This document shows, in pieces, positions 4,237 to 37,708 of a stretch of DNA of 37,708 bases. Position 1 is the first letter of the stretch, and each line of letters opens with the position of its first letter. Both the position numbers and the translations under genes were made by a program. The stretch is from IMG/VR virus record IMGVR_UViG_3300026255_000014, positions 1 through 37,708 of that record. One strand, 5' to 3'. The notes beneath the pieces were generated by a model, which was not told the DNA's origin, did no database searches, and saw only the letters and a list, made by a program, of their open reading frames with translations. This DNA is from a virus.

Positions 4237-4584
4237 ATGGCTTATGCGCCAGCAAGACAATGTGTTGTGCCAGGATGTCCGAATCTTGTGACAGAGCCTG
4301 GTGTTAGCCGTTGTCCAGAACATCAAAAACAATACAAAAAAGAGTTGACAAGACCGCGTGATGTCAAATACACGAGTCAACGATGGCGCAAGACCTCGAA
4401 GGTGTTTTTGAGTCGCAATCCAATTTGTGAACGTTGTGGTGAGCCGAGTGAGATCGCACACCACATTATTCGTAAGCGTGATGACGGGGCAGACGACTTC
4501 GACAATCTGGAAGCACTTTGCCGAAAGTGTCATGAAGCCGAACATCATGCAAGCGGTGAAAGGTGGGGTAGGCGTGCGAGGTAG
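4237..4584 (+). CDS. HNH homing-type endonuclease
   Basis: CxxC...CxxC plus HH..RKRDDG...N...LC..CH arrangement typical of the HNH fold; canonical position just upstream of the terminase small subunit. Confidence 0.8.
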   Translation: MAYAPARQCVVPGCPNLVTEPGVSRCPEHQKQYKKELTRPRDVKYTSQRWRKTSKVFLSRNPICERCGEPSEIAHHIIRKRDDGADDFDNLEALCRKCHEAEHHASGERWGRRAR

Positions 4585-6375: not shown

Positions 6376-8966
6376 AAAAGTACGATCCCTGGAATTGCGA
6401 CCTTGATAAGTACGAATTTGACCCTGTGGCTGGGCAGGTTGCAGTCGACTTTATTGAAAATTATATTACCCATGTCAAAGGGGAGTTAGGCGGCAAGCCT
6501 TTTTTGCTTTTGGAGTGGGAAAAGGATTTTGTAAGAAACCTTTTCGGTTGGAAAGAAAAGGAAACAGGTTATCGGCGTTACCGTGAGGCGTTTGTATTTG
6601 TGGCACGGAAAAATGGCAAAGCATTAGAAGTCAATACTCCGATTCTGACTACTACAGGTTGGAAGAAACACGGCGATTTAGTCCCTGGAGACTTTGTTTT
6701 TTCTCCTGATGGCGTACCCGCAAAGGTTATCTATTCTACTCCTCATTATGAGGGGAATTGTTATTTTGTGGATTTCTCAGGCGATGAAGCAATTATCGCT
6801 CACGAAAATCACGAATGGAAAACTAACCGCACCTGGTATACAGGAAAGCCCAAATGGATAGAAGGTGAAAAGCCTTTGGTTACCACTAAGCGGATTGCGG
6901 AAACTCTACGATGTGGGAAACGCCAAGACCTTGTGCATTCTGTGGATGTTGCGAAACCGATACAGTTTGAGCCAAAAGAATACACAATACCCCCGTATGT
7001 TTTAGGCGTTTGGCTTGGCGATGGCGACTCTGACAGTTGCAGGATCACGATTGCAGAACCTGAAATTGTCCAGAAGCTATCTGATTATGGTTATCCAGCC
7101 GAATATAGATCAAGATACCGACACCTTGTTGGACGGGGGAAGTTTCAAAAGCAACTGCGTGAAAAGGGCTTACTGGGCAATAAGCATATACCACAAGAAT
7201 ACTTGCTTGGTTCAGTTGAGCAAAGGATCGACCTCTTGCGCGGATTGATGGACACAGACGGTTATGTGTCTTCGGCTGGACAATGCGGAATTGCATTAAC
7301 CGACGGTAATTTGTTTCGCCAAGTTGTCGAATTAATTACAGGCTTGGGATTAAAGCCTCGCGTAATGATTGATCGTGCTCAGTTAAATGGGGTTGACTGC
7401 GGAGTTAGATATAGAGTCCACTTCTATGCCTATCAAGACACGCCAATAGCATATATTGAGCGAAAAGCCAAACGGCAAAAAGAAACTCCAAAAACAAGGC
7501 GGCGCAGCCAGACTCGGATGATTTCAAATGTTACGCCCGCAGGTAAGCAAACAGTCAACTGCATCACAGTCGAAGGCGGGATGTATCTCGCAGGAAAGCA
7601 ACTTATCCCAACTCACAACTCACCTCTTGGGGCTGCCATCGCGCTTTATCTGTTGATTGTAGACAATGAGCCTGGTGCAGAGTTGATCTCTGTAGCAGCA
7701 GACCGAGACCAGGCACGGGCGATTTTTGACACGGCTCGTTTTATGGTAAAGCAAAACGCCGCCCTGGACGAATTGGTTAGTGCATATCGAAATGCGATTG
7801 TCGCTAAGCAAGGGGCTTCAGTTTACAAAGTTGTTTCATCGGATGCTGGCACTAAGCATGGTGGAAACTTACATGCTGCGCTTTTTGACGAGTTGCACGC
7901 TCAGAAGAACCGAGACCTTTACGATGTTGTGCAAACCAGTTTTGGCGCGCGCCGTCAACCACTGCTGATTTCTTTTAGTACGGCAGGGTTTGATCGTGAG
8001 TCGATCTGCTATGAAGTTTACTCAATGGCAAAGCAGATTTCTGAGGGCATAATCCAGCGAGATTGGTTTTACCCCGTAATATACGAGGCATCGCCAGAAG
8101 ACGATTGGACAAGCGAAGATACGTGGAAGAAAGCCAATCCGAGTTTGGGACACTCGATCAAGATTGATTACCTGCAGAAGAATTATGAAAAGGCTCTATC
8201 AAGCCCGCAGTTCCAAAACACTTTCAAGCGTTTGTATCTCAATATGTGGACATCGGCAGAAACACGCTGGCTTGATATGCAAAACTGGGACAAATGCGGT
8301 GAGCAACCGATTGACATGGGACTGCTTGAAGGGGCTGAATGTTACGGCGGTCTTGACCTTGCGACAGTTTCTGACATTGCTGCTTTTGTACTGGATTTCC
8401 CGAATGAAAGCGGTGAAGAGGAATTGCACACCTGGCTTCCGACCTTGTTCTGTCCAGAGTCAAAGTTGACCGACCCAGGTTTCATTGACCGCGACATTTA
8501 CAGGGCTTGGGCTGACCAGGGCTATTTGATTGCAACGCCTGGAAACGTGATTGACTACGAGTACATCATTGCTGAAATTGAGCGATTAGGTGAACTTTAC
8601 AACATTAAAGAGATCGCATTTGACCGTTGGGGTGCTGCACAGATTTCACAAACGCTTACCAATATGGGCTTTACTTTGGTTGGTTTTGGTCAAGGGTACG
8701 TGAGCATGTCACCACCCACAAAAGAAGTTGAGCGGTTGATATTACAAGGCAGGGTGAGACATGGAAACCACCCTGTAATGCGTTGGATGGCGGATAACGT
8801 TATGGTTACGACTGACCCTGCAGGGAATATCAAGCCAGACAAGAAGAAAAGCAGGCAGAAGATTGACGGCGTGGTTGCGGCAATCATGGCAACCGATAGG
8901 GCAATTAGAAATTCTGTAGGTCGCAAGGACTCTGTTTACGAAAAAAGAGGGTTGGTTGTTCTATGA
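6372..8966 (+). CDS. terL: Terminase large subunit, interrupted by an in-frame intein
   Basis: 864 aa; removing residues 84..416 yields the P-loop ARKNGKS and a Walker B-like LLIVDNE with a C-terminal nuclease-like domain. GTG start overlaps the upstream stop. Confidence 0.9.
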   Translation: MKKYDPWNCDLDKYEFDPVAGQVAVDFIENYITHVKGELGGKPFLLLEWEKDFVRNLFGWKEKETGYRRYREAFVFVARKNGKALEVNTPILTTTGWKKHGDLVPGDFVFSPDGVPAKVIYSTPHYEGNCYFVDFSGDEAIIAHENHEWKTNRTWYTGKPKWIEGEKPLVTTKRIAETLRCGKRQDLVHSVDVAKPIQFEPKEYTIPPYVLGVWLGDGDSDSCRITIAEPEIVQKLSDYGYPAEYRSRYRHLVGRGKFQKQLREKGLLGNKHIPQEYLLGSVEQRIDLLRGLMDTDGYVSSAGQCGIALTDGNLFRQVVELITGLGLKPRVMIDRAQLNGVDCGVRYRVHFYAYQDTPIAYIERKAKRQKETPKTRRRSQTRMISNVTPAGKQTVNCITVEGGMYLAGKQLIPTHNSPLGAAIALYLLIVDNEPGAELISVAADRDQARAIFDTARFMVKQNAALDELVSAYRNAIVAKQGASVYKVVSSDAGTKHGGNLHAALFDELHAQKNRDLYDVVQTSFGARRQPLLISFSTAGFDRESICYEVYSMAKQISEGIIQRDWFYPVIYEASPEDDWTSEDTWKKANPSLGHSIKIDYLQKNYEKALSSPQFQNTFKRLYLNMWTSAETRWLDMQNWDKCGEQPIDMGLLEGAECYGGLDLATVSDIAAFVLDFPNESGEEELHTWLPTLFCPESKLTDPGFIDRDIYRAWADQGYLIATPGNVIDYEYIIAEIERLGELYNIKEIAFDRWGAAQISQTLTNMGFTLVGFGQGYVSMSPPTKEVERLILQGRVRHGNHPVMRWMADNVMVTTDPAGNIKPDKKKSRQKIDGVVAAIMATDRAIRNSVGRKDSVYEKRGLVVL
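6621..7619 (+). mobile_element. Intein (333 aa) with LAGLIDADG homing endonuclease domain inside the TerL Walker A motif
   Basis: Begins ALEVNTPILT, contains LGVWLGDGDS and LLRGLMDTDGYV, ends ...LIPTHN followed by Ser; splicing restores ARKNGK|SPLG. Confidence 0.8.
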
Positions 8967-16578: not shown

Positions 16579-17196
16579 TTGAAGAACTTTCTGATCGAGC
16601 AGTTTCCTGATGCAATCGAGATTGACGGTGAAGTATATGCCGTCAATACTGATTTTCGTGTCGGGTTACAGATTATGGCTGACTTTGAGAATCCTGAGTT
16701 TGACCAGGATGAGAAGGGCTATCTAATGCTCAATCGGCTTTATCGTGATTTGCCAGATGACAGGGACGGCGAGTTTTATCAGGAAGCGTTATCAAAGGCG
16801 ACTAAATTTCTGAACGCTGGCGATGAGGCAGGACAAGACGTTGACGGCAAACCACGGCTTTACTCGTTTGACAAAGACGCACGGTTGATCTATTCTGCTT
16901 TCTCACAGACTCACGGTGTAGACCTGCAAACAGCCGATATGCACTGGTGGAGGTTTATCGCTCTCTTCATGGATTTGGGGGCAGATACGGCTTTCAATTC
17001 TATGGTCAACCTACGGAAACGTTATCACGAAGGCAAGTTGACCGATGAAGAAAAGAAATTGGTAGCGCGGTTAGGCAATGATTTTCTACTTGAGCAGGAA
17101 GAAAGTTATGAGCCGCTTGACCCTGATGAAATTGCATTTATTGAACTTTTACCAGAAGAAGACCAAAAGAGGTTTTGGGAAAGCAGGAAACGCTAA
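16579..17196 (+). CDS. Tail assembly protein (Gp15-like, candidate)
   Basis: TTG start; N-terminal pattern recalled from the Gp15 family; stop overlaps the TMP start (TAATG). Confidence 0.4.
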   Translation: MKNFLIEQFPDAIEIDGEVYAVNTDFRVGLQIMADFENPEFDQDEKGYLMLNRLYRDLPDDRDGEFYQEALSKATKFLNAGDEAGQDVDGKPRLYSFDKDARLIYSAFSQTHGVDLQTADMHWWRFIALFMDLGADTAFNSMVNLRKRYHEGKLTDEEKKLVARLGNDFLLEQEESYEPLDPDEIAFIELLPEEDQKRFWESRKR

Positions 17197-19901
17197 TGGC
17201 GTATGATGGCAGTATACGGATTAATACAAAAATTGACGGCAAGGGCTTCAACACTGGCATAAAGAGAATGATGTCCAGCCTGGGAAGCCTGACCGCTGCG
17301 ATTGGTGTTGCTTTAAGCGTGGCGGGTCTGGTCAACTTTGGCAAGAAAAGCGTAGAAACTGCTATGCAAATGGAAGCAGGTTGGCAAGGCTTGAGTTATA
17401 TGGCAAGAGCCTACGGCAAAGACATCAACCAAATCTCAGAGTTTTTGCAGGACTACACAAAAGACGGTTTAGTGCCAATGATGAACGCACAGCAAGCCTA
17501 TAAGAACATGCTTGCCCGTGGGTACGACACAGAACAGCTTGAAAAGATGCTGCTGATTATGAAAGACAGCGCAGTTTATCTTCGCAAAGGGCAGTTGAGC
17601 ATCGGCGATGCAATCGAGAAAACCACAATGGGCTTGCGGACAGAGCGATCTATCCTGACCGACTCCTCTGGTATCGAAAAGAACATGTATAAAATGTGGC
17701 AAGCCTACGCAAAGGAAATGGGAACAACCATTTCGGCTTTGACGGAAGAGCAGAAACTTATCGCCGAGTTCCAGGGTTTCATGGAAGAGGGCGCGGTTTA
17801 TGCTGGGGCTGCCGCTGAGTACACCCAAACTTACGCTGGTCGAGTGGCGCAATTAACCGCAGCAATGGTCGGTTTGAAGGTGTCCGTGGGTAACATGCTC
17901 ATCCCATTGCTGAATGCGATGCTGCCGAAAATTATTGAGATAGTACATTGGTTTACCCGCCTTTTCAACATCGTTGGGCGCGTGTTGAACTTATTATTTG
18001 GCACAAACGTTGGGGCAATAGACGCTATAGCTGAAGGGACTGAAGATGCCGCAGATGCACAGGACGCGTTGGCTGATGCGACTGGCGAGGCGGGCAAGGC
18101 GGCTAAAGGTGCATTGGCTGCGTTTGACAAGTTGAATGTACTGGCACAACCAAAAGCAGCGAGCGGTGCTGGTGACACAGACTTAGGCTTGCCAGAAGAA
18201 GAGGAAGACGGTGGTGCGCTTGGCAAGATTGGGAAAGCACTTGATGAGTTAGAGATAAAGATTGCGGCTTTCAAACAGAACTTGCTTGCTTTCTTCGCAC
18301 CATTACAAGAGCCGTTTAATCGCTTGAAAGAGGCTTTTCTGACCTTAGGCGCGACCATCGGTACTGGCTTAGGCTGGGCGTGGGAAAACATCTTGCAGCC
18401 ATTTTTCACCTGGATAGTCCAAAGCGTTGCTCCCGTTGCTCTTGACATTATTTCTGGAGCACTTGGTGTCCTAAACGAGATTTTGATTGCAGTTTCTCCG
18501 TTGTTTGTCGCTCTGTGGGAGAACGTACTGAAGCCGTTAGGGGAGTGGGCTGGCGAGGCGTTTATCCAAGCCCTGACTTGGATTTCAGAAAAACTTACGG
18601 AGCTAAGCGATTGGATCAGCACTCACCAGGAGACAGTTCAGACAATTGCAACCATCTTAGGAAGTTTCGCCGCAGCATGGATTCTCGTGAACGGCGCGAT
18701 TGGTATTTGGAGTGGAATAGCTGCTATAGCCACGAGCGTAACAACTGCGTTTGCTGGTGCGGTTGCGTTTCTGACATCGCCAATAGGGTTGGTGGTTTTG
18801 GCAATTGGGGCGGTAATTGCAATTGGTGTGTTACTGATCCAGCATTGGGACGACGTAAAAGCCTGGGCGATTAGCACCTGGGAAAAGATCAAAGAAGTTT
18901 GGGGTGTAGTCGCAGGCTGGTTTAACGAGAAGGTAGTTGAGCCACTAAAGGCGTTCTTTGCTCCAATAGCTGAATGGTTTTCAACCAACGTTACTGATCC
19001 ACTGAAAGAGAAGTTTGCAAACCTTGTCGAGAAGTGGACTGAACTCAAAGACGTGATCAAAGAGAAGATCATTGACCCTGTAGTAAAATTCTTTGAGGAA
19101 ACCCTTAAGCCGCTGATTGCAGCCGTCCTGGACTTTCTGAAGGATTACTTTGCTGAAGTTTGGGAGGGCATAAAAGATGTCATATCTACAGTGATTGGTG
19201 CAATCGGTTTGATTTTCGAGACACAGCTTGAGTTTTGGAAAGGCATTTTTTCAGGTGTCTTCGAGGCTATCGGTGGAATTATCAAAGGTGCGTTGGAGGT
19301 TATTACTGCGGTAATAGGGACGATCATTGACGTAATCGCTGGGATTATCACCTTCCTGACTGGTGTGTTTACTGGCGATTGGGACAAAGCCTGGCAGGGT
19401 ATCAAAGACATCGTGATTGGCATTTGGGACGGGATTGTTGGTGTAATCAAGGGCGCAATCAATGGGATCATCGGGTTTATCAACGGGATGATCAATGGCA
19501 TTGTATCTGGAATCAACAACGTAATCGGCGTGCTCAATAATCTGAATATTGAAATCCCCGATTGGATTCCATTTTGGGGCGGAAAGACTTTTGGCTTCAA
19601 CCTACAAGCCCTTACTGCCCCGCAAATTCCTTTACTTGCCACTGGCGCAGTTATCCCCGCCAATGCGCCGTTCGCGGCAATCCTGGGCGACCAGAAGTCT
19701 GGTACGAATGTCGAAGCACCGCTGAAAACCATTGAGCAAGCTGTGGACAATGTGCTGGCACGGCGGGGGCTTAATACTGGTACAGACAATGGGTTGATCC
19801 ACAACGTTATCAAATTGGACGGGCAAGTCTTATATGATGCGTTTAAGAAAATTGACAAGCGCGTTGGCAGAAGCATGATTGCAGGGAGCGGTATACGATG
19901 A
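17196..19901 (+). CDS. Tail tape measure protein
   Basis: ~900 aa, alpha-helical N-terminal part, Gly/Ala/Ile-rich hydrophobic C-terminal region, position after chaperones. Confidence 0.85.
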   Translation: MAYDGSIRINTKIDGKGFNTGIKRMMSSLGSLTAAIGVALSVAGLVNFGKKSVETAMQMEAGWQGLSYMARAYGKDINQISEFLQDYTKDGLVPMMNAQQAYKNMLARGYDTEQLEKMLLIMKDSAVYLRKGQLSIGDAIEKTTMGLRTERSILTDSSGIEKNMYKMWQAYAKEMGTTISALTEEQKLIAEFQGFMEEGAVYAGAAAEYTQTYAGRVAQLTAAMVGLKVSVGNMLIPLLNAMLPKIIEIVHWFTRLFNIVGRVLNLLFGTNVGAIDAIAEGTEDAADAQDALADATGEAGKAAKGALAAFDKLNVLAQPKAASGAGDTDLGLPEEEEDGGALGKIGKALDELEIKIAAFKQNLLAFFAPLQEPFNRLKEAFLTLGATIGTGLGWAWENILQPFFTWIVQSVAPVALDIISGALGVLNEILIAVSPLFVALWENVLKPLGEWAGEAFIQALTWISEKLTELSDWISTHQETVQTIATILGSFAAAWILVNGAIGIWSGIAAIATSVTTAFAGAVAFLTSPIGLVVLAIGAVIAIGVLLIQHWDDVKAWAISTWEKIKEVWGVVAGWFNEKVVEPLKAFFAPIAEWFSTNVTDPLKEKFANLVEKWTELKDVIKEKIIDPVVKFFEETLKPLIAAVLDFLKDYFAEVWEGIKDVISTVIGAIGLIFETQLEFWKGIFSGVFEAIGGIIKGALEVITAVIGTIIDVIAGIITFLTGVFTGDWDKAWQGIKDIVIGIWDGIVGVIKGAINGIIGFINGMINGIVSGINNVIGVLNNLNIEIPDWIPFWGGKTFGFNLQALTAPQIPLLATGAVIPANAPFAAILGDQKSGTNVEAPLKTIEQAVDNVLARRGLNTGTDNGLIHNVIKLDGQVLYDAFKKIDKRVGRSMIAGSGIR

Positions 19902-24057: not shown

Positions 24058-25470
24058 ATGACTTATCCGTTCGGCATTGACATTTCGGCTTACCAATACT
24101 CACAAGACGGCTCACGAAAGCCCGACTTCGACCTAATCAACGAAAAGTGTGACTTCGTTGCCGTGCGTGCTGGCATCAGTTGGGGGTACACCGACAAGTG
24201 GTTTGAGTATTCGTGGTCACACGTTCTCAGACCGAGGCTGGGGTATCACGTGGTTTACCCTGGCGAGAGTGCGACTGCACAAATGAAACACTTTCTCAAC
24301 ATCGTGCATCCAACTCAGAATGACCGCCTTGTGCTTGATATGGAACTCGACCACGGCTATAGCAAGGCTCGAATCACAAAAACGCTTGTGGACTGTATGA
24401 ACATTATACAGACAGAGACGGGGCGTTATCCTGTGATTTACAGCAGGGCTTATTGGATTAACCAGTTTGTAGACGTGAACGCTTTGCCAGAAAAGACCGA
24501 CTGGTGGTTAGCAAACTACCTGCGTTCTAATCCCGACCCGTATTTCACGCCAGAGATGACACCGCCGCCTATGTTGCCAAACGGTGTGAAGAATTGGCTC
24601 ATCCATCAAACGTCAAAAGAACAGGACGGCAGTAAGGTGGGCGTGGTTAGTCACTATGTGGACACTAATCGTTGGAACGGTACACACGATGAGTTGCTGG
24701 CTTACTTCGGTTACGATGAGCAACCAGAGCCTGAACCTGAACCTGAACCGGAAGAGCCTTTGTTCCAAGCACGCGTTTACAGCTGGGCGACTCCCTACGT
24801 CAACGTGAGAGCCGAACCTTCATTAAGCGCAGGGAAAGTCGGCTTCAAATACCCGTTAGCGGTGACCGATGTTATGAGCACGATGCCTGACTGGTACGAA
24901 GTGCCCGAAGGCTGGATGATGTCTCGATTCTTAGAACGGCTTGACTATGACCCGCCCGCCACGATGCTTGCAATCAAGCCGCTCTCACAAAGAGACACGC
25001 GCTGGGCTTCTCACAAACTCGGTTATTCCTATTACACGATAGGCGGTTACGGATGCCTTATCACAGCTATCAGTATGATACTGAACTGGTACGGCAAGCA
25101 GACCGACCCGGCGCAACTCAATGACGCTTTGGTTAGGGTGGGCGGTTTCACGGGTGCAAACCTTTATTGGAACGCAATCGCGCAAGTTCAGCCTGACATT
25201 TACCTTGCAAAGGCTATCGACTGCTACTATATTCCAGCACCCTTGCACGAAATAGACGCTCTGCTTGCGGATGACGTTCCCGTCTTGGTGCACGTTGACT
25301 TCACGCCGGGTGGCGCGGTAGATCAGCATTGGGTGCTGATTGTCGGCAAGTCGGGCGATGATTACATCATCAATGACCCGTGGACTGGGGAGCAAGGTAG
25401 TTTCCGCACTCGTTATGGCGATCCTGCCCGCTGGATATTCCGCATCAGGGCGTATCGGAGGCAAGCATGA
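24058..25470 (+). CDS. Modular endolysin: GH25 muramidase, (EP)n linker, C-terminal C39-like cysteine peptidase
   Basis: N-terminal FGIDISAYQ typical of GH25; linker EPEPEPEPEPEEP; C-terminal GYGCLITAISM and DQHWVLIVG suggest a papain-like Cys/His pair. Confidence 0.8.
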   Translation: MTYPFGIDISAYQYSQDGSRKPDFDLINEKCDFVAVRAGISWGYTDKWFEYSWSHVLRPRLGYHVVYPGESATAQMKHFLNIVHPTQNDRLVLDMELDHGYSKARITKTLVDCMNIIQTETGRYPVIYSRAYWINQFVDVNALPEKTDWWLANYLRSNPDPYFTPEMTPPPMLPNGVKNWLIHQTSKEQDGSKVGVVSHYVDTNRWNGTHDELLAYFGYDEQPEPEPEPEPEEPLFQARVYSWATPYVNVRAEPSLSAGKVGFKYPLAVTDVMSTMPDWYEVPEGWMMSRFLERLDYDPPATMLAIKPLSQRDTRWASHKLGYSYYTIGGYGCLITAISMILNWYGKQTDPAQLNDALVRVGGFTGANLYWNAIAQVQPDIYLAKAIDCYYIPAPLHEIDALLADDVPVLVHVDFTPGGAVDQHWVLIVGKSGDDYIINDPWTGEQGSFRTRYGDPARWIFRIRAYRRQA

Positions 25471-26032: not shown

Positions 26033-28426
26033 ATGGCAAATTGGGCTAAGTTACAAGAGCAACTGACAGGACTGCCTGTTGTAAAGCGAGACAAGCACAG
26101 CATCCACTTTGCCAAAGGTGACGGGCAAATCGTTGCCAACTTCTCAGGCGCACCCTGTCACTATGAAGAGAACGGCATCTGGAAAGCACTCGACACCGCC
26201 ATCGTTGAACTGGAAGACGGCTCACTTGGCGCAAAGGGCGTACCAGTCCGCTTGAACCTGAACGGGCTTGTCAGGCTTATCAACGAAAACAACGAGGACT
26301 TATACAGTCAAGTCACGACACGGGTGGGCGTGTTCAATAGCACTACCCGCAACTTGGTAGATTACATCAACCTGCCAGTAGGACAAGTTCAAGACGACCT
26401 GCTGATAAAAGACACCGACCTCTATTCTCACAGTTTGCGCTTGACCGAAACAGGCTTGCGCGAAGAAATTGTCATCAAGTCAAAGCCAGCGTTTGTAACC
26501 GACAAGGCTAACTTATGGCTGGTACTTGACACGGTTGTGACGGGCGTAAGTTTCGAGGACGGCTGGCTGGATGCGTTTGAGATTGCGCAAATGCACTTCC
26601 CACCTCCAACCGCTACCGATGCGGAGGGGCGAGAGGGCACGGCGAAACGCTATGCCAAGAATATTGGTGGCGTTCAGCACATCTTTACTGGCTTGAAATT
26701 CAGTGAGTTGTATCGGGCGGCTTACCCTGTAACGGTTGACCCTGACTTTAGTGGTGGGTCTGGATATGTAATTACTAGTCAAAGTACTGATTATGCTACT
26801 GCAAGAACAACGAGTGTATCTTCAGCAGCTTGGTCGAATAGGTCTGACGTTGGGCAGGGACAGTGGTCTGTTTATCTAAGAACTTTACGCATCTTTACAA
26901 AGTTTGACACATCAAGTATAGGAGCAGGCTCAACAGTTACACAAGTTAACTTGGCTATGTGCCCTTATTATAACAATTCTGCTACAGATTTTGACATCCA
27001 GATATGTATGCAAGACTGGTCGGCTCAAGACCCCATAGCATCGGGAAATAGAGAAACAGCGTTTGACAACTGTCTCGCAGAAACAGATTACGATGTTTGG
27101 TTGAACAGTGCTGATTGTCCGAAAAGACAGAGATATACGGGTGGAAATATGACCACATCGTGGATTAACAAGACTGGCACAACATATTATAGTATTCGCT
27201 CAAGTAGGGACTACAACGGCGATGAGCGTGTAATTGATGGAAATACTGAAACTGTTAACTTGTGTGCGCCAGATAACGCCACCGAATCCTACCGCCCCGT
27301 TCTTACCGTCACCTATCTCATTCCCGACTACACCCTCACTTGCGCCGCCGGTTCATACTCGCTGACTGGCACGGATTGCACGCTTACGCACACTCCGGCA
27401 TCGCAAAACCTGACCCTCACCTGTTCCGCTGGCTCATATTCGCTAACAGGCACGAACGCCGACTTGACGGTCAAGCGGAATTATGTGCTGGCGTGTGGTG
27501 CTGGAAGTTATTCGCTCACCGGCTCGGATGTGGATTTTGTTCTGCAACGCAATTACTCGCTTGAATGCGGTGCTGGAAGTTACAGCCTGACTGGTACGGA
27601 CACGACATTCGAGGTCAAGCGAAATTACACGCTTGTCTGTGAAGCTGGAAGCTACAGTCTTACTGGTACTAACGCCGACTTGACGGTCACCCGACATTAC
27701 ACGCTAACCTGTGAGACTGGAAGTTATGCGCTTGCTGGCACTAACGCCGACCTTATTTTACAGCGCAACTATGTGTTAGCTTGCTCTGCTGGCAATTACT
27801 TAATCACAGGCACGGACGTAACACTCACTGTTCAACGCAATTACACCCTCACCTGCGCCGCCGGTTCATACTCGCTGACTGGCACTAACGTCACGCTCAC
27901 ATCAACCGTAAAGCAAAACTTGACGCTGGCTTGTTCTGCAGGCTCGTACTCGCTTACTGGCACTAACGCCGACTTGACGGTCACCCGACATTACACGCTA
28001 ACCTGTGAAGCTGGAGGTTATGCGCTTACTGGCTCAATCGTTGATCTGACAGTCCAGCGCAACTATGTGTTGGTGTGTGAAGCTGGTAGTTACGCGCTAA
28101 CCGGAACAAACGCAGGCTTGACTTCTGCTCGCACAATGGCACTCGAATCAGGTTCGTACGCCTTGACTGGCACGAATGCCGGTCTATACCGCGCGTTGGT
28201 TATGGCTTGTGAGGCTGGAACTTATGCGCTCACAGGCTCGGATGCTACGTTCAATGCCAATTACATATTTGCTCTCGGAATGGGGAGTTACGTTCTGGTT
28301 GGCACGAGCGTGGGATTGTTCGTTCTCTCGCCAACACCGGCTTGCAGAACCGCGACAATCGAATTTGAGAACAGAACATTTGCAATTCCGCATGAGAATA
28401 GAACATTAGAGGTCACATGTCACTAA
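26033..28426 (+). CDS. Large repeat protein: ~430-aa N-terminal domain plus ~16 tandem 22-23-aa Cys-containing repeats
   Basis: Repeats of consensus YTLTC.AGSYSLTGTNADLTV.RN span roughly nt 27320..28330. Confidence 0.6.
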   Translation: MANWAKLQEQLTGLPVVKRDKHSIHFAKGDGQIVANFSGAPCHYEENGIWKALDTAIVELEDGSLGAKGVPVRLNLNGLVRLINENNEDLYSQVTTRVGVFNSTTRNLVDYINLPVGQVQDDLLIKDTDLYSHSLRLTETGLREEIVIKSKPAFVTDKANLWLVLDTVVTGVSFEDGWLDAFEIAQMHFPPPTATDAEGREGTAKRYAKNIGGVQHIFTGLKFSELYRAAYPVTVDPDFSGGSGYVITSQSTDYATARTTSVSSAAWSNRSDVGQGQWSVYLRTLRIFTKFDTSSIGAGSTVTQVNLAMCPYYNNSATDFDIQICMQDWSAQDPIASGNRETAFDNCLAETDYDVWLNSADCPKRQRYTGGNMTTSWINKTGTTYYSIRSSRDYNGDERVIDGNTETVNLCAPDNATESYRPVLTVTYLIPDYTLTCAAGSYSLTGTDCTLTHTPASQNLTLTCSAGSYSLTGTNADLTVKRNYVLACGAGSYSLTGSDVDFVLQRNYSLECGAGSYSLTGTDTTFEVKRNYTLVCEAGSYSLTGTNADLTVTRHYTLTCETGSYALAGTNADLILQRNYVLACSAGNYLITGTDVTLTVQRNYTLTCAAGSYSLTGTNVTLTSTVKQNLTLACSAGSYSLTGTNADLTVTRHYTLTCEAGGYALTGSIVDLTVQRNYVLVCEAGSYALTGTNAGLTSARTMALESGSYALTGTNAGLYRALVMACEAGTYALTGSDATFNANYIFALGMGSYVLVGTSVGLFVLSPTPACRTATIEFENRTFAIPHENRTLEVTCH

Positions 28427-28698
28427 CATTACAAAATCCATTGAAAGACCCTTCCGCAGTGCTGGATTATGTGTTCGACTGGACGGAATGGCTGGCAACC
28501 GGCGAAACAATCACCGACCATACTATCACAGCCGACACGGGTATCACCGTTGACAGTTCGACTGAATCAGACGGCAAAGTTACCGTCTGGCTCTCAGGCG
28601 GTACGGCTGGTATCAATTACAAAGTGGCGTGCCTGATTACAACGTCCGCAGGGCGAACCGACGAGCGCACAATCTGGATCAAGGTGGTCGAAAGGTGA
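28417..28698 (+). CDS. Small conserved-looking phage protein (possible fiber-associated)
   Basis: Pattern DYVFDWTEWL...VTVWLSGGTAG.NYKV recalled as a recurrent phage family; function unknown. Confidence 0.35.
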   Translation: MSLTLQNPLKDPSAVLDYVFDWTEWLATGETITDHTITADTGITVDSSTESDGKVTVWLSGGTAGINYKVACLITTSAGRTDERTIWIKVVER

Positions 28699-30185
28699 GC
28701 AATTTGTTTCCAGACATAACGGGCGTGCTATATGAAGAAGAACAGTCAAAATTACATGAGATAGCCAAAACAACTACGCATCCAATTGTCAACATTGGCG
28801 TATATCAAGGATTGTCTACCGCACAACTTGCAAGTGGCACAAAGCAGAGCGTGTACGCCATTGACATTTGGGATGAGCGACCAGCAGGGTATGTCCCAAG
28901 TAAAAGGGACTTGATGAGGGGATACCACCTGAAGAAAACTCAGGACGTTTTCCTTGAAAACATGGAAAAGCACGGCTTGACAAACGTTATCCCGATAAAG
29001 GGTAACAGCAAGGTGGTTGGCAAAACCTGGGACACCCCGATAGGCGTGTTGTTTATCGACGGTGATCACCATTACAAATCCGCGCTTTCGGATTACAGCT
29101 TGTTTGCAAAACACATTGTAGTCGGCGGATGGTTAGCAATTCACGATTATCACATAAAAGACGTTAGAAGGGTGATAGACGAGATCATCATTCCTTCGGG
29201 ACTGTGGACGGACATTGAACTGACAGAGACCTTATGGGTTTGCAAGAGAAAGTCGTGCACGACAGCAGACGCAAAACCGCCTATGACATACTGGATACGC
29301 CATCATCAGCACAAAGGGAAGCCAATTGAAGACGCTTTAATTAGTCAAGGATGGCAGTGTAGTGACGCGCCAGATATTGCCTTGTTCGACACCGCGAGGA
29401 ACAAACCTATAGAACGCAGGTTTAGAAGAGGGGGCGCAACGCTTGTAGTCTATCCGCATACGGCAATTGCTGGCTGGTGGTACGACGGGATATTAGAACC
29501 GCCTAACGGCTTTAGTGCAATACTGGCTATCGGGGAAGGACAGAAGGAAGTCCAGAATATCATCACGCCGAACATCAGGGTTGAAACAATTGGTTGGAGT
29601 TATTGTCCAATCTTGCCATTTCAAAAGCCAAAGGCGATCAAGCAAATACTGTTTGCCCCCATCCATCCAAGCCTCAATGGCAAGTTGAGATCAGAGGCAA
29701 AAGACGTGAACGTCAGGGTGTATAAGCGTTTGCTGGAAATGAAAGGCGTGCAGATAAACCTTCGTGTTATTGGCGATCTTGAAAAGAATGGATTATGGCA
29801 CTCGCCAGATGTTACAACCACAGAAGCCCAACCAGACGGAAGTTATGCAGAAATTGATTCTGCAGATTTGGTGATAGGCGAGGGCATGTTTCTATCGCTT
29901 GCAGTAGCCAGAGGGAAGCCAGCTATCGGAATGAATCAGCGCGTAACACAGAAAGTAAACTGGAGTGGGCGCGTTCCAAAACGGTGGAACGAATATAACC
30001 ACTTACAAGCATATCCGATTGACTTTGATGACGCTGATCTGCCGGAGTTGATTGACAAGGCGGTAGACGAATCACAGGTAAGCAACTGGAAGAAACGCTT
30101 TATCGGTGAGCAGTTGCAACCTGAGCATTTATCAAACGTGCTAAAGGACATCAGGAATGAGCATGCCAAACAGAGAGAACAATAA
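28695..30185 (+). CDS. Fusion protein: class I SAM-dependent methyltransferase-like N-terminus, glycosyltransferase-like C-terminal domain
   Basis: NIGVYQGLST...FIDGDHHY...GGWLAIHDY resembles Methyltransf_24-type O-methyltransferases; C-terminal ADLVIGEGMFLSLAVARGKPAIG resembles GT-B C-terminal domains. GTG start overlaps upstream stop. Confidence 0.5.
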   Translation: MSNLFPDITGVLYEEEQSKLHEIAKTTTHPIVNIGVYQGLSTAQLASGTKQSVYAIDIWDERPAGYVPSKRDLMRGYHLKKTQDVFLENMEKHGLTNVIPIKGNSKVVGKTWDTPIGVLFIDGDHHYKSALSDYSLFAKHIVVGGWLAIHDYHIKDVRRVIDEIIIPSGLWTDIELTETLWVCKRKSCTTADAKPPMTYWIRHHQHKGKPIEDALISQGWQCSDAPDIALFDTARNKPIERRFRRGGATLVVYPHTAIAGWWYDGILEPPNGFSAILAIGEGQKEVQNIITPNIRVETIGWSYCPILPFQKPKAIKQILFAPIHPSLNGKLRSEAKDVNVRVYKRLLEMKGVQINLRVIGDLEKNGLWHSPDVTTTEAQPDGSYAEIDSADLVIGEGMFLSLAVARGKPAIGMNQRVTQKVNWSGRVPKRWNEYNHLQAYPIDFDDADLPELIDKAVDESQVSNWKKRFIGEQLQPEHLSNVLKDIRNEHAKQREQ

Positions 30186-30188
30186 ATT

Positions 30189-31493
30189 ATGAGCGAAACC
30201 GCTTTGATCGACAATATCTCAAGAGAGATATTTGAAGGTAATGGAAACGCACAAGAGAAACTACGTAGAATATATGGTAAAGAACTAAACTATACCAACG
30301 CCAAAAAATACTTGGCTGGGATAAAACTGCACCTGAACACGGTCAAGGGCTTAGACAAAAACCAACAAACTTTTGGTACATCGAAAGAGATCAGTTTCAA
30401 TGCTGACAAAAGTCAAACCGTAAAACAAGACGTTTACCTGACACCGGACGAGGCAGCCGATCCTTCAAAGATAATGCGGAGGATGGGCTTTGATCCTTTG
30501 TTATGGGAAGTTATAACCTGCAACGTGATCAGCGGATCGTGGGATGTTACGATCAAGAACGAAGCCTATGAGGGCGTGAAATACACGAACCAAAAATACT
30601 CGATAAAGTTGACCGTGAAACCGTTGGGGGGCAACCTGACGTTTCCACAAGTGCTGAGTGCTTTCAAGGAACTGCAACCTGCCAAAGTTATCGAGTACGA
30701 CTACGAACCGATTGTAACAGGAAAAGGGCTTTTGTTTGAACTGCCAATTATGGATTTCCACTTAGGCAAACTCGCCTGGTCTGGCGAAACAGGCGATGAT
30801 GATTATGATCTGAAAGCCGCTGCAAAGTTGTGGAAGAAAACTGTAGACGATCTGATAGACAAGGCTTGCAGCTTTGGCGAGATTGAGAAAATATTGTTTC
30901 CAGTTGGGCAAGACTATTTTCATTTTGACACGCCAACGGTTACTACAACCGCTGGAACTCAACTCGATTCTGACACACGTTGGCAGAAGATGTTTAGCAA
31001 AGGCGTGGAGTTGTTGGTTTGGGCGGTAGAGCAATTGAGAAAGATTGCGCCAGTTGAAGTATTGTGGATTCCAGGCAACCACGATCAGATGTTATCTTAT
31101 GCGGCAACTGTGGGCTTGGCTCAACGGTATGCAGAAACTAAAAGCGTAAAGGTGGACTTGAGCGCAACCCCCAGGAAGTATCGCTTGTTTGGAAATAGCC
31201 TTATCGGATATTCTCACGGCGAAAAAGAAGGCAAGCGGCTGGAGGGGCTTATGCAGATTGAAGCACCTGAACTTTGGGGTGATTCTATCTTCAGGGAATT
31301 TCATATGGGGCATTTGCACACTGAATCAACCGTCACAAAAAACGGTATCGTGTTTCGCAGGATCAGTGCGATCACCGCACCCAATGCCTGGCACGTGGAA
31401 AATGGTTTCATTGGCAGTGTACGACAGGCGCAAGCGTTTATGTGGGATAAGGAACGCGGCTTGCAAGCTATCTTGAATAGTAATGTGAGGTAA
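30189..31493 (+). CDS. Calcineurin-like metallophosphoesterase-like protein
   Basis: Ordered motifs DFHLG, GQDYFHFD, GNHD, YSHGE, GHLH resemble the metallophosphatase signature. Confidence 0.5.
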   Translation: MSETALIDNISREIFEGNGNAQEKLRRIYGKELNYTNAKKYLAGIKLHLNTVKGLDKNQQTFGTSKEISFNADKSQTVKQDVYLTPDEAADPSKIMRRMGFDPLLWEVITCNVISGSWDVTIKNEAYEGVKYTNQKYSIKLTVKPLGGNLTFPQVLSAFKELQPAKVIEYDYEPIVTGKGLLFELPIMDFHLGKLAWSGETGDDDYDLKAAAKLWKKTVDDLIDKACSFGEIEKILFPVGQDYFHFDTPTVTTTAGTQLDSDTRWQKMFSKGVELLVWAVEQLRKIAPVEVLWIPGNHDQMLSYAATVGLAQRYAETKSVKVDLSATPRKYRLFGNSLIGYSHGEKEGKRLEGLMQIEAPELWGDSIFREFHMGHLHTESTVTKNGIVFRRISAITAPNAWHVENGFIGSVRQAQAFMWDKERGLQAILNSNVR

Positions 31494-31494
31494 T

Positions 31495-31713
31495 ATGCCC
31501 GTCTACGTTTACCATTGTGACAATTGCCTGAAGCAGACCGAGATATTTCAACACTTCACCGATGACCCGATAACCGTGTGCCCTGAGTGTAAACAGCCGA
31601 CTTTGCAGAAAGTGTATCAGGTTGCGAACGTGCATTACAAGGGCAATGGCTTCTATGTCACGGATAAACGAGGGGCTGAACAAGTGTCGGGGGAGTCTTC
31701 GGACAACTCATAA
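31495..31713 (+). CDS. FmdB-family-like zinc-ribbon protein
   Basis: MPVYVYHCDNC...CPEC...GNGFYVTD matches the FmdB-type zinc ribbon pattern. Confidence 0.65.
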   Translation: MPVYVYHCDNCLKQTEIFQHFTDDPITVCPECKQPTLQKVYQVANVHYKGNGFYVTDKRGAEQVSGESSDNS

Positions 31714-31742: not shown

Positions 31743-31780
31743 AAAGAGCACCAGCTAAATTGTAGGTGCTCTTTCGTTTT
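31743..31780 (+). terminator. Rho-independent terminator closing the late operon
   Basis: AAAGAGCACC-loop-GGTGCTCTTT followed by CGTTTT. Confidence 0.7.
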
Positions 31781-31781
31781 A

Positions 31782-31855
31782 AGTATTGTATTCGAGTATT
31801 GTAATTAAGTATTGTAAGACGCATCCCATTTTAAGTATTGATTTCAGGTATTGTA
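31782..31855. repeat. Five direct copies of RGTATTGW (AGTATTGTA core), iteron-like
   Basis: Copies at about 31782, 31795, 31808, 31834, 31847. Confidence 0.7.
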
Positions 31856-32029
31856 ACGCCTTCTTCTGCCATTGCCTTATCAAGCAGGTTGCGTAGAGTA
31901 CGGCTGATCCCCTGTGGCTGTGACGTAAAAAAAGGGGGTAAAAACAGGGGTTATTATAATATCGCATAATTACACCTTATTATAATACAACGCTTATTTT
32001 AGGGGTATTTTATCGCTTGCAATGGCCAC

Positions 32030-32101
32030 GGGTTCAGGGTTCAGGGTTCAGGGGTTCACGATCTCAGGGTTCAGGGTTCAGCGTCCAGGGGTAGGGGGGG
32101 G
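32030..32101. repeat. Tandem GGGTTCA heptamer array ending in a G8 run
   Basis: GGGTTCA x3, GGGGTTC, gap, GGGTTCA x2, degenerate copies, then GGGGTAGGGGGGGG. Confidence 0.85.
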
Positions 32102-32214
32102 CGAAATCTCTACCGCGCAAGCCCCCCGAGCGCGCGCGTAATCTTAGGCACGCGAGGGCAAATATCCGACAGGGGGTTAATCTTACCAATTATTCAAGAA
32201 ATCCCGAAAAACAC

Positions 32215-32242
32215 TTGACTTTTGCTTTAATTTGTGTATAAT
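32215..32242 (+). promoter_or_regulatory. Sigma-70-type promoter, near consensus (probable early promoter)
   Basis: TTGACT (32215..32220), 16-nt spacer, TATAAT (32237..32242); RBS TAAGGAGC and ATG at 32284 downstream. Confidence 0.65.
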
Positions 32243-32283
32243 TCAGGTGTAGTAAAGTAATTCACACAAAGATAAGGAGCAAA

Positions 32284-34017: not shown

Positions 34018-34980
34018 ATGAATAATGAACTAATAACGCTTGATGAGAGAAGCCGTTTATACCAGCTTGAAGAAACTATCAGGCAAGGGCTGAATACCTT
34101 CGTGGATGTTGGGAACGCCCTGCTTGAGATACGGGACAAACGGCTTTACAGGCAAGAGCACAGCACGTTCGAAGAATACTGCAATAAGCAGTGGAACTTT
34201 ACAAAACAGCGTGTCTACCAACTTATGGATTCTGCCTCTGTAATCGACACTCTAAAAAAGTCAACCGTGGTTGACTTTTTACCAACCTCTGAACGCCAAG
34301 CCCGCCCGCTTGCGTCACTTGAGCCAGAAGAACAGGTTGAAGCATGGAAGCGCGTTATTACATCAACGCCGGAGGGCAATGTTACAGCCAAGATTGTTTT
34401 GAAGGCTGTAAAGGAAGTTGAGCGCGAGAAGCGCATTGAGCGAAGGCAAGAGCGCATAGAAAGTACTCCTGTAATTCCAAACGGGAAATACAACGTCATT
34501 TATGCTGACCCTCCCTGGCAATACGCATTTGGGTTTGATATTCATGGGGCAGCCGATAGACACTACTCCACTATGTCAATTGATGAACTTTGTGAATTGC
34601 CGATAAGAGACTTGACCGAAGACAACGCAGTCTTATTTATGTGGACGACATCACCAAAGTTATTTGATTCTTATGCTGTAATAAAGGCATGGGGATTTGA
34701 GTATAAAACTTCCTTCGTCTGGGACAAAGTGAAACATGTCATGGGGCACTATAACAGTGTCAGGCATGAGTTCCTTCTACTTTGCACAAAGGGAAGTTTT
34801 CCAAAACAGTCTAATACTTTACACGACAGCGTTATTGAAATCGAGCGATCGGACGAACACAGCGAAAAACCTGAATATTTTCGGCAACTAATTGAGACGA
34901 TGTATCCGCTATCGAAAAAAATAGAGTTATTCGCACGTAAAACTGTCGATGGCTGGGATGGCTGGGGGAATGAAATATGA
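34018..34980 (+). CDS. MT-A70-family N6-adenine DNA methyltransferase with N-terminal putative DNA-binding domain
   Basis: VIYADPPWQY, FMWTT, KAWGF, VWDK, EHSEKP, ELFARK...GWDGWGNE are MT-A70 signatures. Confidence 0.85.
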   Translation: MNNELITLDERSRLYQLEETIRQGLNTFVDVGNALLEIRDKRLYRQEHSTFEEYCNKQWNFTKQRVYQLMDSASVIDTLKKSTVVDFLPTSERQARPLASLEPEEQVEAWKRVITSTPEGNVTAKIVLKAVKEVEREKRIERRQERIESTPVIPNGKYNVIYADPPWQYAFGFDIHGAADRHYSTMSIDELCELPIRDLTEDNAVLFMWTTSPKLFDSYAVIKAWGFEYKTSFVWDKVKHVMGHYNSVRHEFLLLCTKGSFPKQSNTLHDSVIEIERSDEHSEKPEYFRQLIETMYPLSKKIELFARKTVDGWDGWGNEI

Positions 34981-37309: not shown

Positions 37310-37638
37310 ACACGCTTAAACCCTGTCCGTTTTGTGGGAGGACACCGAATCCAGACTGGACTGATGAGAGCTACATAGAGTGTACAAATCGTAAATGTTC
37401 TCTTTATGGTTATGGAATGAGTACAGGCGACTGGAACACCCGCCCAATTGAGGATGACCTTCGCAAGCGCATTGCCGAGTTGGAGGCGCTTGTTAATGTG
37501 TCGGAAGGTCTTTACGAGCGTATCTATGAGCAAGCAGCCCGCATTGCCGAGCTGGAGGCGGAGATTGTCCAACTTACCGCTCACGATGCTACAGAGCGGC
37601 AAGATGATAAGTGGATACCGGAGGTGCAGGATGTGTAA
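37306..37638 (+). CDS. Lar-family-like zinc-ribbon protein (putative restriction alleviation), paralog A
   Basis: Same N-terminal zinc ribbon and coiled coil as 1066..1395; complete copy of the gene truncated at 1..312. Confidence 0.6.
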   Translation: MNTLKPCPFCGRTPNPDWTDESYIECTNRKCSLYGYGMSTGDWNTRPIEDDLRKRIAELEALVNVSEGLYERIYEQAARIAELEAEIVQLTAHDATERQDDKWIPEVQDV

Positions 37639-37708
37639 CTTTTTCAGTTTTGTAACAGACCCAGTGAATCACCCAGCGGAGTATTACTACTTCGACTGGG
37701 AATATCGC
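37327..37708. repeat. Terminal redundancy, right copy; identical to 1..382
   Basis: Direct sequence identity. Confidence 0.9.
37631..37708 (+). CDS. 5' end of the tandem-repeat protein gene (duplicate of 305..382), truncated by window end
   Basis: Identical to 305..382. Confidence 0.45.
   Translation, partial: MCNFFSFVTDPVNHPAEYYYFDWEYR

What the first reader, a model, noticed from the sequence alone, without database searches (positions are those of the whole stretch)
28695..31713. Post-lysis accessory module: methyltransferase/glycosyltransferase-like fusion, metallophosphatase-like protein, FmdB zinc ribbon
Three co-directional, translationally coupled genes sit between the last structural-looking gene and the late terminator at 31743. 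None has an obvious virion or lysis role. The combination of a SAM-methyltransferase-like domain fused to a GT-B-like domain, a calcineurin-like phosphoesterase and a small zinc-ribbon protein is not a standard phage module. Possible roles are modification of a host surface glycan, modification of phage DNA or proteins, or degradation of a nucleotide signal.
Basis: inference. Interest (0 to 1): 0.8.

Follow-up and report, generated by a model that had tools for sequence, protein, structure and literature searches.

The report
Phage sugar-transferase/methylase fusion plus unrelated nuclease
The three genes are real, but they are not one module: the first is a fused methyltransferase and sugar-transferase-like enzyme of an unannotated phage-only family that probably decorates virion proteins, the second is a common phage Mre11-like phosphoesterase, and the third is a sporadic zinc-ribbon gene.

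Summary
Three tightly packed + strand genes (28695-30185, 30189-31493, 31495-31713) close the late operon before a hairpin terminator at 31743-31774.

X is a discrete family seen almost only in uncultured phages:
- 497 representatives among 1.84 billion protein clusters
- 0 of 50,697 GenBank phage records
- 2 MAG contigs among 185,579 species genomes

In 39 of 65 dereplicated loci X is fused or adjacent to a SAM methyltransferase. It sits in several different virion-gene contexts: after the major capsid protein, after the tail tube protein, between portal and minor capsid protein, or after a fibre and adaptor as here.

The best reading is a sugar-transfer plus methylation enzyme acting on virion proteins, as in the mycobacteriophage Corndog cassette. 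This is an inference.

Gene 2 is a separate, widespread phage metallophosphoesterase (phrog_704, Mre11/SbcD-like, all five motifs intact). It also occurs without X. Gene 3 (FmdB) is found only in the closest relatives.

The trio is synteny, not a functional unit.

The parts
28695..29282 (+). Gene 1, N-terminal domain (residues 1-196): class I SAM-dependent methyltransferase, Methyltransf_24 type
   Evidence: Pfam PF13578 at E 2.2e-16, covering the whole profile, plus a weak TylF hit. The best solved structure by sequence is 6g7d, E 6.3e-10. It is 49% identical to a free-standing 191-aa Methyltransf_24 gene in L003. The AF2 model of this domain is poor (pLDDT below 55), because few aligned sequences cover it.
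29283..30185 (+). Gene 1, C-terminal 'X' domain (residues 197-496): compact GT-B fold enzyme of an unannotated phage-specific family
30189..31493 (+). Gene 2: 434-aa metallophosphoesterase, Mre11/SbcD-like. It has an N-terminal helical domain (1-61), a beta-rich domain (67-145) and a catalytic domain (about 181-430).
31495..31713 (+). Gene 3: 72-aa FmdB-family zinc ribbon (C8xxC11 ... C29xxC32)
   Evidence: PF09723 at 2.4e-13 and TIGR02605 at 4.6e-15. It is present only in L009 (in pieces), L011 and L012 among 89 related loci.
31743..31780 (+). Intrinsic terminator closing the late operon
   Evidence: 10-bp perfect inverted repeat with a 12-nt loop, then CGTTTT. The fold energy is -26.7 kcal/mol, z = -3.1.
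28417..28698 (+). Upstream gp77-type fibre-tail adaptor gene, translationally coupled to gene 1 (context; possible partner or substrate)
   Evidence: PF23148 at 3.1e-29. The same gene lies directly upstream of the methyltransferase/X genes in L009, L010, L012, L013, L017, L018 and L019.
26033..28426 (+). 797-aa fibre-like protein with 12 copies of a 24-aa repeat, C-x-A-G-S-Y-S-L-T-G-T (context; candidate acceptor, speculative)
   Evidence: Repeats and 25% Ser+Thr content in the C-terminal part. It travels with gp77 and the methyltransferase/X genes in L010, L012 and L013, and with gp77 in L016 and L017. It is absent where gene 2 directly follows the lysin (L005, L007).

Best explanation
The region holds two unrelated functions plus an occasional passenger gene.

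(1) Gene 1 is a bifunctional late enzyme. Its C-terminal X domain is a compact GT-B fold transferase that uses an activated sugar, or a related nucleotide-linked donor. Its N-terminal Methyltransf_24 domain methylates that sugar. The most likely acceptors are virion proteins made at the same time. In this phage the candidates are the repeat-rich fibre and its gp77-type adaptor, encoded immediately upstream. In other phages they would be the major capsid or tail tube protein. The result would be glycosylated, methylated virions.

(2) Gene 2 is an independent Mn/Fe-type metallophosphoesterase of the Mre11/SbcD kind. It most likely acts as a nuclease on DNA late in infection, without a Rad50/SbcC partner.

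(3) Gene 3 is a small FmdB zinc-ribbon protein of unknown role, found only in the closest relatives.

What is shown: folds, motifs, family sizes, fusions and gene neighbourhoods. What is inferred: donor, acceptor, methylation target and nuclease activity.
For: Fold and family of X:
- The fold is GT-B at high model confidence.
- Conserved residues lie at the C-terminal ends of the predicted strands of both halves: H204-Q-x-K207, D232, Y253-P-H255, F320-A-P-x-H324, E396-G397, R406-G-K-P409, N414-Q415. This is where a GT-B cleft would be.

Coupling to methyltransferases:
- 39 of 65 dereplicated X loci have a class I SAM methyltransferase fused or adjacent, usually with overlapping stop and start.
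- Fusion arose at least twice: MT24-X here and in P0001/P0002, and X-MT23/25 in P0310.

The methyltransferases look like sugar enzymes:
- The common MT11/23/25 partner is most similar to the TylM1/DesVI dTDP-aminosugar N,N-dimethyltransferases.
- Relatives of the MT24 domain are fused to, or annotated as, glycosyltransferases: P0068 (PF13578 + PF00535) and a Synechococcus phage S-SRM01 gene.
- Some loci add a GT2 glycosyltransferase next to X.

Virion context. X sits in at least five different gene orders:
- fibre / gp77 - MT - X
- portal - MT - X - minor capsid - scaffold
- scaffold - major capsid - 138-aa gene - X - GT2
- tail tube - small gene - X - MT - tape measure
- tail terminator - major tail - X - tail chaperone - tape measure
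At least 33 of 65 loci have an annotated virion gene within four genes of X.

Precedent: Corndog carries an O-methyltransferase and three glycosyltransferase genes between its portal and protease genes. Its authors proposed that they modify the capsid (PMC4351075).

Phage-restricted distribution.

Gene 2: motifs, fold and independent distribution. A mycobacteriophage metallophosphoesterase is reported to damage host DNA (PMC12287305 abstract).
Against: There is no biochemical evidence of any kind.

- X belongs to no sequence-defined GT family.
- No sugar-nucleotide synthesis gene was found in the genome.
- The small proteins that precede X in different contexts are not homologous, so there is no common acceptor.
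- 26 of 65 loci show no recognisable methyltransferase next to X. About half have no neighbour that I could annotate as a virion gene.
- Gene position is weak evidence for a substrate.
- The gene 2 model is only moderate (pLDDT 67.5), and no nuclease assay exists for this subfamily.
Confidence: 0.45

Rival explanations
1. Gene 1 modifies phage DNA, adding a possibly methylated sugar to a base as protection against restriction. This would resemble T4 glucosyltransferases or the 5hmC/5hmU glycan pathways found in metaviromes.
Against: The window is a complete genome (382-nt terminal overlap). No thymidylate-synthase-like hydroxymethylase or 5mYOX/TET enzyme turned up among its ORFs. Those enzymes normally cluster with DNA-glycosylating GTs. 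Both DNA methylases are amino-methylases, which give no hydroxymethyl acceptor. The methyltransferases next to X are small-molecule or sugar types, not DNA types. X sits among capsid and tail genes, not among replication genes.
Confidence: 0.12
2. Gene 1 alters a host envelope glycopolymer (teichoic-acid-like polymer, S-layer glycan or capsule) late in infection. This could mask receptors so that progeny are not lost on debris, or could exclude other phages.
Against: In this phage the gene is translationally coupled to a structural gene, has no promoter of its own, and no integrase was found. X is nearly absent from bacterial genomes, with 2 short MAG contigs among 185,579 species. That is unexpected for a lysogenic-conversion gene, although the scan used only two peptide patterns. 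In most lineages X lies inside head or tail gene blocks, not at the moron position. I noticed no membrane-associated segment on reading the sequence; this was not tested.
Confidence: 0.15
3. The three genes act together as one pathway. For example, gene 2 hydrolyses a nucleotide-sugar or a nucleotide signal linked to the gene 1 reaction, and gene 3 regulates them.
Against: Gene 2 is within four genes of X in only 11 of 65 X loci, all from related lineages. Gene 2 occurs without X in L005-L007, and in 2047 GenBank phages that have no X at all. In cultured phages it sits upstream of HNH/terminase genes. Its best fold match is Mre11. There is no PADLOC hit. FmdB is absent from almost all loci.
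Confidence: 0.05
4. X is not a transferase onto a macromolecule. Instead it is a nucleotide-sugar-converting enzyme, such as a 2-epimerase or a hydrolysing NeuC-like enzyme, that supplies an unusual methylated sugar for a host or phage glycosyltransferase.
Against: Most loci, including this window, have no other recognisable glycosyltransferase next to X. No Epimerase_2 profile hit appears even at E = 5 in 27 members. At about 300 aa, X is shorter than the 360-385-aa epimerases it matches.
Confidence: 0.15

Closest known systems
Mycobacteriophage Corndog (cluster O) cassette gp35-gp38: one O-methyltransferase, two glycosyltransferases and a putative N-acetylglucosaminyltransferase inside the virion structural operon
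   Same: A SAM methyltransferase plus sugar transferase(s) is inserted among virion genes (in Corndog, between portal and protease). The Corndog gp35-38 proteins were detected in infected cells but not in virions, and were proposed to modify the capsid (PMC4351075). One X context, portal - MT - X - minor capsid, is almost the same position.
   Different: No sequence relationship to those genes was found or tested here. X has no GT profile hit at all. In this window it is fused to its methyltransferase and lies after a fibre/adaptor pair at the end of the late operon. The hosts are uncultured; relatives include an Anaerolineaceae prophage. They are not actinobacteria.
GT-B fold enzymes with solved structures: SpnG rhamnosyltransferase (3tsa), CapG/UDP-GlcNAc 2-epimerases (7ya2, 4nes), TarL/TagF (8va1, 3l7i)
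   Different: Sequence identity is only 8-14%. X is about 300 aa against 360-560 aa for the matches. It has no membership in their Pfam families. The matches span three different chemistries, so the reaction type is not fixed.
Phage DNA glycosyltransferases (T4 alpha-GT, 1y6f; metavirome 5hmC glycan clusters)
   Same: Phage-encoded GT-B fold enzymes (rank 59).
   Different: Those cluster with ThyS or 5mYOX enzymes and replication genes. None of these was found in this complete genome.
Mre11/SbcD nucleases and phage metallophosphoesterases (PHROG 704 'DNA repair exonuclease'; mycobacteriophage A10ZJ24 Gp48)
   Same: Gene 2 has all five phosphoesterase motifs and its best fold match is Mre11. 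It is a strong member of phrog_704. Gp48 is reported to disrupt host genomic DNA (PMC12287305 abstract).
   Different: No Rad50/SbcC-like ATPase gene was found in the genome. Gene 2 has extra N-terminal helical and beta domains. It is expressed late here, whereas Gp48 is early. Homology to Gp48 was not tested. No activity is known for this subfamily.
FmdB family zinc ribbon (TIGR02605 / PF09723)
   Same: Full-length match above the curated cut-offs, with two CxxC pairs.
   Different: The family itself has no established function. Here it is a terminal passenger gene found only in the nearest relatives.

Membership tests
GT-B fold glycosyltransferase superfamily | Two Rossmann-like alpha/beta domains facing a cleft | tested here: met
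GT-B fold glycosyltransferase superfamily | Sequence membership in a defined GT family (Pfam/CAZy-type profile) | tested here: not met
   No Pfam hit in any of 27 members at E up to 5. No NCBIfam hit. No PHROG covers the X domain. CAZy/dbCAN was not available.
GT-B fold glycosyltransferase superfamily | Transfer of a sugar from a nucleotide-activated donor to an acceptor | not testable with these tools
   Needs enzyme assays. The fold matches also include epimerases and alditol-phosphate transferases.
Methyltransf_24 (PF13578), class I SAM methyltransferase | Profile score above the Pfam gathering cut-off over the full domain | tested here: met
   61.1 bits against a cut-off of 26.3, covering profile positions 1-105 of 105 and residues 54-174 of the longer ORF translation.
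Sugar O-/N-methyltransferases (TylF, TylM1/DesVI type) | Specific similarity to enzymes known to methylate sugars | tested here: inconclusive
   The TylF hit is below its cut-off (14.7 against 23 bits). The best PDB match, 6g7d, is named only 'Methyltransferase domain protein'. I recall it as a mycobacterial mannoside 1-O-methyltransferase but could not verify this. The partner MT11-type genes in other loci match TylM1/DesVI at E of about 2e-9.
Calcineurin-like metallophosphoesterase (PF00149) | Five metal-binding motifs: DxH, GD, GNH(D/E), H, GHxH | tested here: met
   D189/H191, G240/D242, G296-N297-H298-D299, H343 and G374-H375-x-H377 are invariant in 43 homologues. The Pfam score itself is below its cut-off (13.8 against 21.5).
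Mre11/SbcD nuclease complex | Partner SMC-like ATPase (Rad50/SbcC) encoded alongside | tested here: not met
   No such ORF in the complete 37.3-kb genome. The only large ATPase found is the terminase.
Mre11/SbcD nuclease complex | Nuclease activity on DNA ends or hairpins | not testable with these tools
FmdB zinc ribbon (TIGR02605) | Score above the curated cut-off and a CxxC...CxxC arrangement | tested here: met
   55.4 bits against a cut-off of 31.3. C8/C11 and C29/C32 are visible in the translation.
Phage DNA sugar-hypermodification gene clusters | Co-occurrence with a hydroxymethylpyrimidine-forming enzyme (ThyS-like or 5mYOX/TET) | tested here: not met
   None was found among the window's ORFs by PHROG/Pfam. 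The genome is complete.
Virion glycosylation cassette (Corndog type) | Methyltransferase and sugar-transferase genes embedded in the virion structural operon | tested here: met
   Gene orders. In this window gene 1 is coupled to the gp77-type adaptor gene.
Virion glycosylation cassette (Corndog type) | Glycan actually present on capsid, tail or fibre proteins | not testable with these tools
   Needs mass spectrometry or glycan staining of virions or co-expressed proteins.

The most novel reading that the evidence does not exclude
The X domain founds a phage-only family of compact GT-B enzymes with about 500 sequence clusters and no cultured representative. Always working with a SAM methyltransferase, it would decorate whichever abundant virion protein is encoded beside it (capsid, tail tube or fibre) with methylated sugars. 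That would make virion glycosylation a widespread trait of uncultured environmental phages rather than a peculiarity of actinobacteriophages.
Probability: 0.3. Interest if true: 0.65.

Novelty: new variant of a known kind. Interest (0 to 1): 0.45.

Why it matters
Glycosylated phage particles have so far been discussed mainly for mycobacteriophages, where the glycans are reported to affect antibody recognition. That last point is from my own knowledge; I did not read the primary paper here.

An unannotated, phage-restricted GT-B family that travels with methyltransferases through head, tail and fibre gene blocks would extend this idea to uncultured phages of anaerobic environments. It would also give annotators a new profile for about 500 'hypothetical protein' clusters.

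The fused form in this window is the simplest construct for testing donor, acceptor and methylation chemistry in one protein.

The second gene shows that a very common phage phosphoesterase (phrog_704 and relatives in more than 2000 GenBank phages) still has no assigned activity.

Tried and rejected
- Near-identity DNA search of the region against GenBank phages: no match.
- Sequence search of X and of gene 2 against PDB chains: only noise.
- Pfam scan of 27 X members at E up to 5: nothing consistent.
- Pfam scan of ten longer X-containing proteins, to read their extra domains: only P0310 gave a hit, a methyltransferase.
- tblastn of X against 50,697 phage records at E up to 10: nothing.
- AFDB Foldseek search: the library was unavailable.
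- First genome-contig scan found nothing. The second scan gave two MAG contigs.
- Test of whether the small proteins preceding X in different contexts (gp77, c44, c12, c84 and others) share ancestry, as a common acceptor would: hhalign probabilities were all below 5%. Idea rejected.
- PADLOC scan of the three proteins: no hit.
- Attempt to confirm the identity of PDB 6g7d from the literature: not found. That lead stays a recollection.
- The longer GTG start at 28629 was rejected, because the homologues start at the 28695 position.
- Lysogenic-conversion reading for this phage was rated low, because no integrase or own promoter was found.
Full report
**What is there.** The window is a complete siphovirus genome. 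Its two ends overlap by 382 nt, and all large genes lie on the + strand.

The gene order is as follows:
- TerS (4427-5071), an N6_N4 DNA methylase (5068-6375) and TerL (6372-8966)
- portal, protease and major capsid protein
- head-tail genes and tape measure (17175-19901), then tail tip and fibre genes
- a GH25 + SH3 + C39_2 endolysin (24058-25470)
- a 136-aa gene, then a 797-aa fibre-like protein (26033-28426) with twelve 24-aa C-x-A-G-S-Y-S-L-T-G-T repeats
- a gp77-type fibre-tail adaptor (28417-28698)

The three genes of the finding follow, then a hairpin terminator at 31743-31774. After that comes a repeat-rich intergenic region and a near-consensus promoter at 32215-32242, in front of the early genes (Erf, MT-A70 methylase, replication initiator, SSB).

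- GTG 28695 overlaps the TGA of the adaptor gene.
- There is a 3-nt gap before ATG 30189.
- There is a 1-nt gap before ATG 31495.

**Gene 1, domain by domain.** Residues 1-196 are a Methyltransf_24 class I SAM methyltransferase, at 61 bits against a cut-off of 26. Residues 197-496 (the 'X' domain) have no hit in Pfam, NCBIfam or PHROGs, and neither do 26 relatives even at E = 5.

A search of 5.8 billion protein clusters found 69 relatives of gene 1. Only two (P0001, P0002) have the fused architecture. Nearly all the others are free-standing proteins of about 300 aa that cover X only.

- the SpnG rhamnosyltransferase
- CapG and other UDP-GlcNAc 2-epimerases
- TarL and TagF
- SenB
- many GT1, GT4 and GT28 enzymes

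Foldseek against viral models returns viral glycosyltransferases. The near-invariant residues (H204-Q-x-K207, D232, Y253-P-H255, F320-A-P-x-H324, E396-G397, R406-G-K-P409, N414-Q415) fall at the ends of the predicted strands of both halves. That is where a GT-B active-site cleft lies.

The fold is therefore shown. The chemistry is not. It could be sugar transfer, epimerisation or alditol-phosphate transfer.

**How big and where the X family is.** An exhaustive HMMER search with the X profile found 497 representatives at E <= 1e-3 and 335 at E <= 1e-30, among 1.84 billion cluster representatives. This is a small, sharply bounded family, not the edge of a large GT family.

- It has no member in 50,697 GenBank phage records.
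- A pattern scan of 185,579 species genomes found only two short MAG contigs.
- IMG/VR holds at least 142 stretches.

X therefore belongs to uncultured phages.

**The methyltransferase link.** I called ORFs in 89 fetched loci, clustered them, and examined 65 dereplicated loci that carry X.

- In 39 of the 65, a class I SAM methyltransferase is fused to X or directly adjacent. In 28 loci the nearby methyltransferase is an MT11/23/25-type gene, at position -1 in 23 of them, usually with overlapping stop and start. In 14 loci it is a Methyltransf_24 gene.
- L003 carries the unfused equivalent of this window: MT24 (49% identical to the gene 1 N-terminal domain), MT11, two X paralogues, then the gene 2 homologue.
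- P0310 is an independent fusion in the opposite order, X-MT23/25.
- The MT11-type partner is most similar to TylM1/DesVI, which are dTDP-aminosugar N,N-dimethyltransferases.
- Relatives of the MT24 domain are fused to GT2 domains (P0068) or annotated as glycosyltransferases.
- Several loci add a GT2 gene beside X.

Two independent fusions plus persistent adjacency are good evidence that X and a methyltransferase act in one pathway, and that the pathway concerns sugars.

**Where X sits.** X is found in at least five unrelated gene orders:
- fibre / gp77 adaptor - MT - X - (small membrane protein) - gene 2 - (TerL), as in this window
- TerL - portal - MT - X - minor capsid protein - scaffold - major capsid
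- scaffold - major capsid - 138-aa gene - X - GT2 - MT24
- tail tube - small gene - X - MT25 - tape measure
- tail terminator - major tail protein - X - tail assembly chaperone - tape measure

At least 33 of 65 loci have an annotated virion gene within four genes of X. Most of the rest are the lysin / gene 2 / TerL context or have unannotated neighbours.

In relatives where gene 2 directly follows the lysin (L005, L007), the fibre, the adaptor and the MT/X genes are all absent together. The fibre-adaptor-MT-X block thus behaves as one insertion.

The closest precedent is mycobacteriophage Corndog. There an O-methyltransferase and three glycosyltransferase genes lie between portal and protease, and were proposed to modify the capsid (PMC4351075).

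I therefore rate virion-protein glycosylation with a methylated sugar as the most likely function, at confidence 0.45. This is inference from context. The small proteins preceding X in different contexts are not homologous, so there is no shared acceptor.

**Rivals for gene 1.**
- DNA glycosylation is known for phage GT-B enzymes. Those cluster with ThyS or 5mYOX enzymes, and this complete genome has neither. Its two DNA methylases are amino-methylases.
- Host-envelope modification is compatible with the TarL/TagF matches and with the operon-end position. However, gene 1 is coupled to a structural gene, no integrase was found, and X is almost absent from bacterial genomes.
- X could instead be a nucleotide-sugar converter. 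Epimerases rank as high as transferases. That would change the step catalysed, not the pathway.

**Gene 2.** It matches phrog_704 ('DNA repair exonuclease') at 1.6e-70. More than 120 clusters share at least 62% identity with it over the full length.

Its catalytic domain has relatives in 2047 GenBank phage records. Most are 42-51-kb enterobacterial siphophages, where it is annotated as a phosphoesterase, an exonuclease or hypothetical.

Its position varies:
- Full-length relatives in cultured phages sit just upstream of the HNH/TerS/TerL genes (Bacillus phage vB_BhaS-171 gp01, Lactobacillus phage J-1 gp58).
- In L003-type contigs it lies directly before TerL.
- In temperate relatives, including an Anaerolineaceae prophage, it is the last late gene before the integrase, with no X nearby.

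It is near X in only 11 of 65 X loci. It is therefore an independent gene. It is most likely a metal-dependent nuclease working without a Rad50/SbcC partner, since none is encoded. A mycobacteriophage metallophosphoesterase that damages host DNA is a functional precedent (PMC12287305 abstract), but homology to it was not tested. No PADLOC model matches.

**Gene 3.** It is a bona fide FmdB zinc ribbon. It is found only in L009 (in pieces), L011 and L012. It is not part of any conserved unit.

**Verdict.** The three-gene 'module' is synteny within one phage lineage, not a functional unit.

The interesting part is gene 1: a fused representative of an unannotated, phage-restricted GT-B family that always travels with SAM methyltransferases through virion gene blocks. 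I class this as a new variant of a known kind (phage sugar-transferase/methyltransferase cassettes). The function is inferred, not shown.

Gene 2 is a common phage phosphoesterase of still unknown activity. Gene 3 is ordinary.

Noticed in passing
window 1-382 and 37327-37708: The first and last 382 nt are identical. The window is therefore a complete genome of about 37.3 kb, either circularly assembled or terminally redundant. All large genes are on the + strand and no integrase was detected.
   Followed up: partly
window 31778-32283: The intergenic region between the late terminator and the early promoter carries five copies of (A/G)GTATTGTAA, three of them at 13-nt phasing (31778-31817). It also has two GTAAAAA(A/C)AGGGG units, and 8.4 copies of the heptamer GGGTTCA at 32030-32090. 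A near-consensus promoter, TTGACT-16-TATAAT, follows at 32215-32242. It could be an origin, operator array or packaging site.
   Followed up: no
window 5068-8966: An N6_N4 DNA methylase gene is wedged between TerS and TerL, with overlapping boundaries. TerL is unusually long (864 aa). The usual terminase match covers residues 417-855, and other terminase-family profiles match the extra N-terminal ~400 aa.
   Followed up: no
window 26033-28426: The 797-aa fibre-like protein has twelve tandem 24-aa repeats, each with one Cys (C-x-A-G-S-Y-S-L-T-G-T...), and 25% Ser+Thr in the repeat part. It has no Pfam or PHROG family. It travels with the gp77-like adaptor and the MT/X genes in related contigs.
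   Followed up: partly
L008 9031-9216: A free-standing 62-aa ORF is 48% identical to the N-terminal helical domain (residues 1-62) of gene 2. It lies upstream of the MT11-X-gene 2 block, so this domain also exists as a separate small protein.
   Followed up: no
L014 1731-1847 and L016 4506-4622: A 39-residue remnant of the N-terminus of X (79% identical) lies between the gp77-like gene and the gene 2 homologue. An intact MT11-X pair lies about 3-4 kb (L014) or about 2 kb (L016) downstream. This looks like a scar of rearrangement at this junction.
   Followed up: no
L065, L067, L085, L003, L052, L058: Some phage contigs carry two or three X paralogues. P0190 is a 654-aa protein with two X domains. 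In L065 and L067 the paralogues alternate with a 280-310-aa gene (cluster c37) that has no Pfam or PHROG hit.
   Followed up: no
window 34018-34980: A second DNA methylase (MT-A70 type) lies in the early region. The genome therefore encodes three methyltransferase domains of three different families.
   Followed up: no
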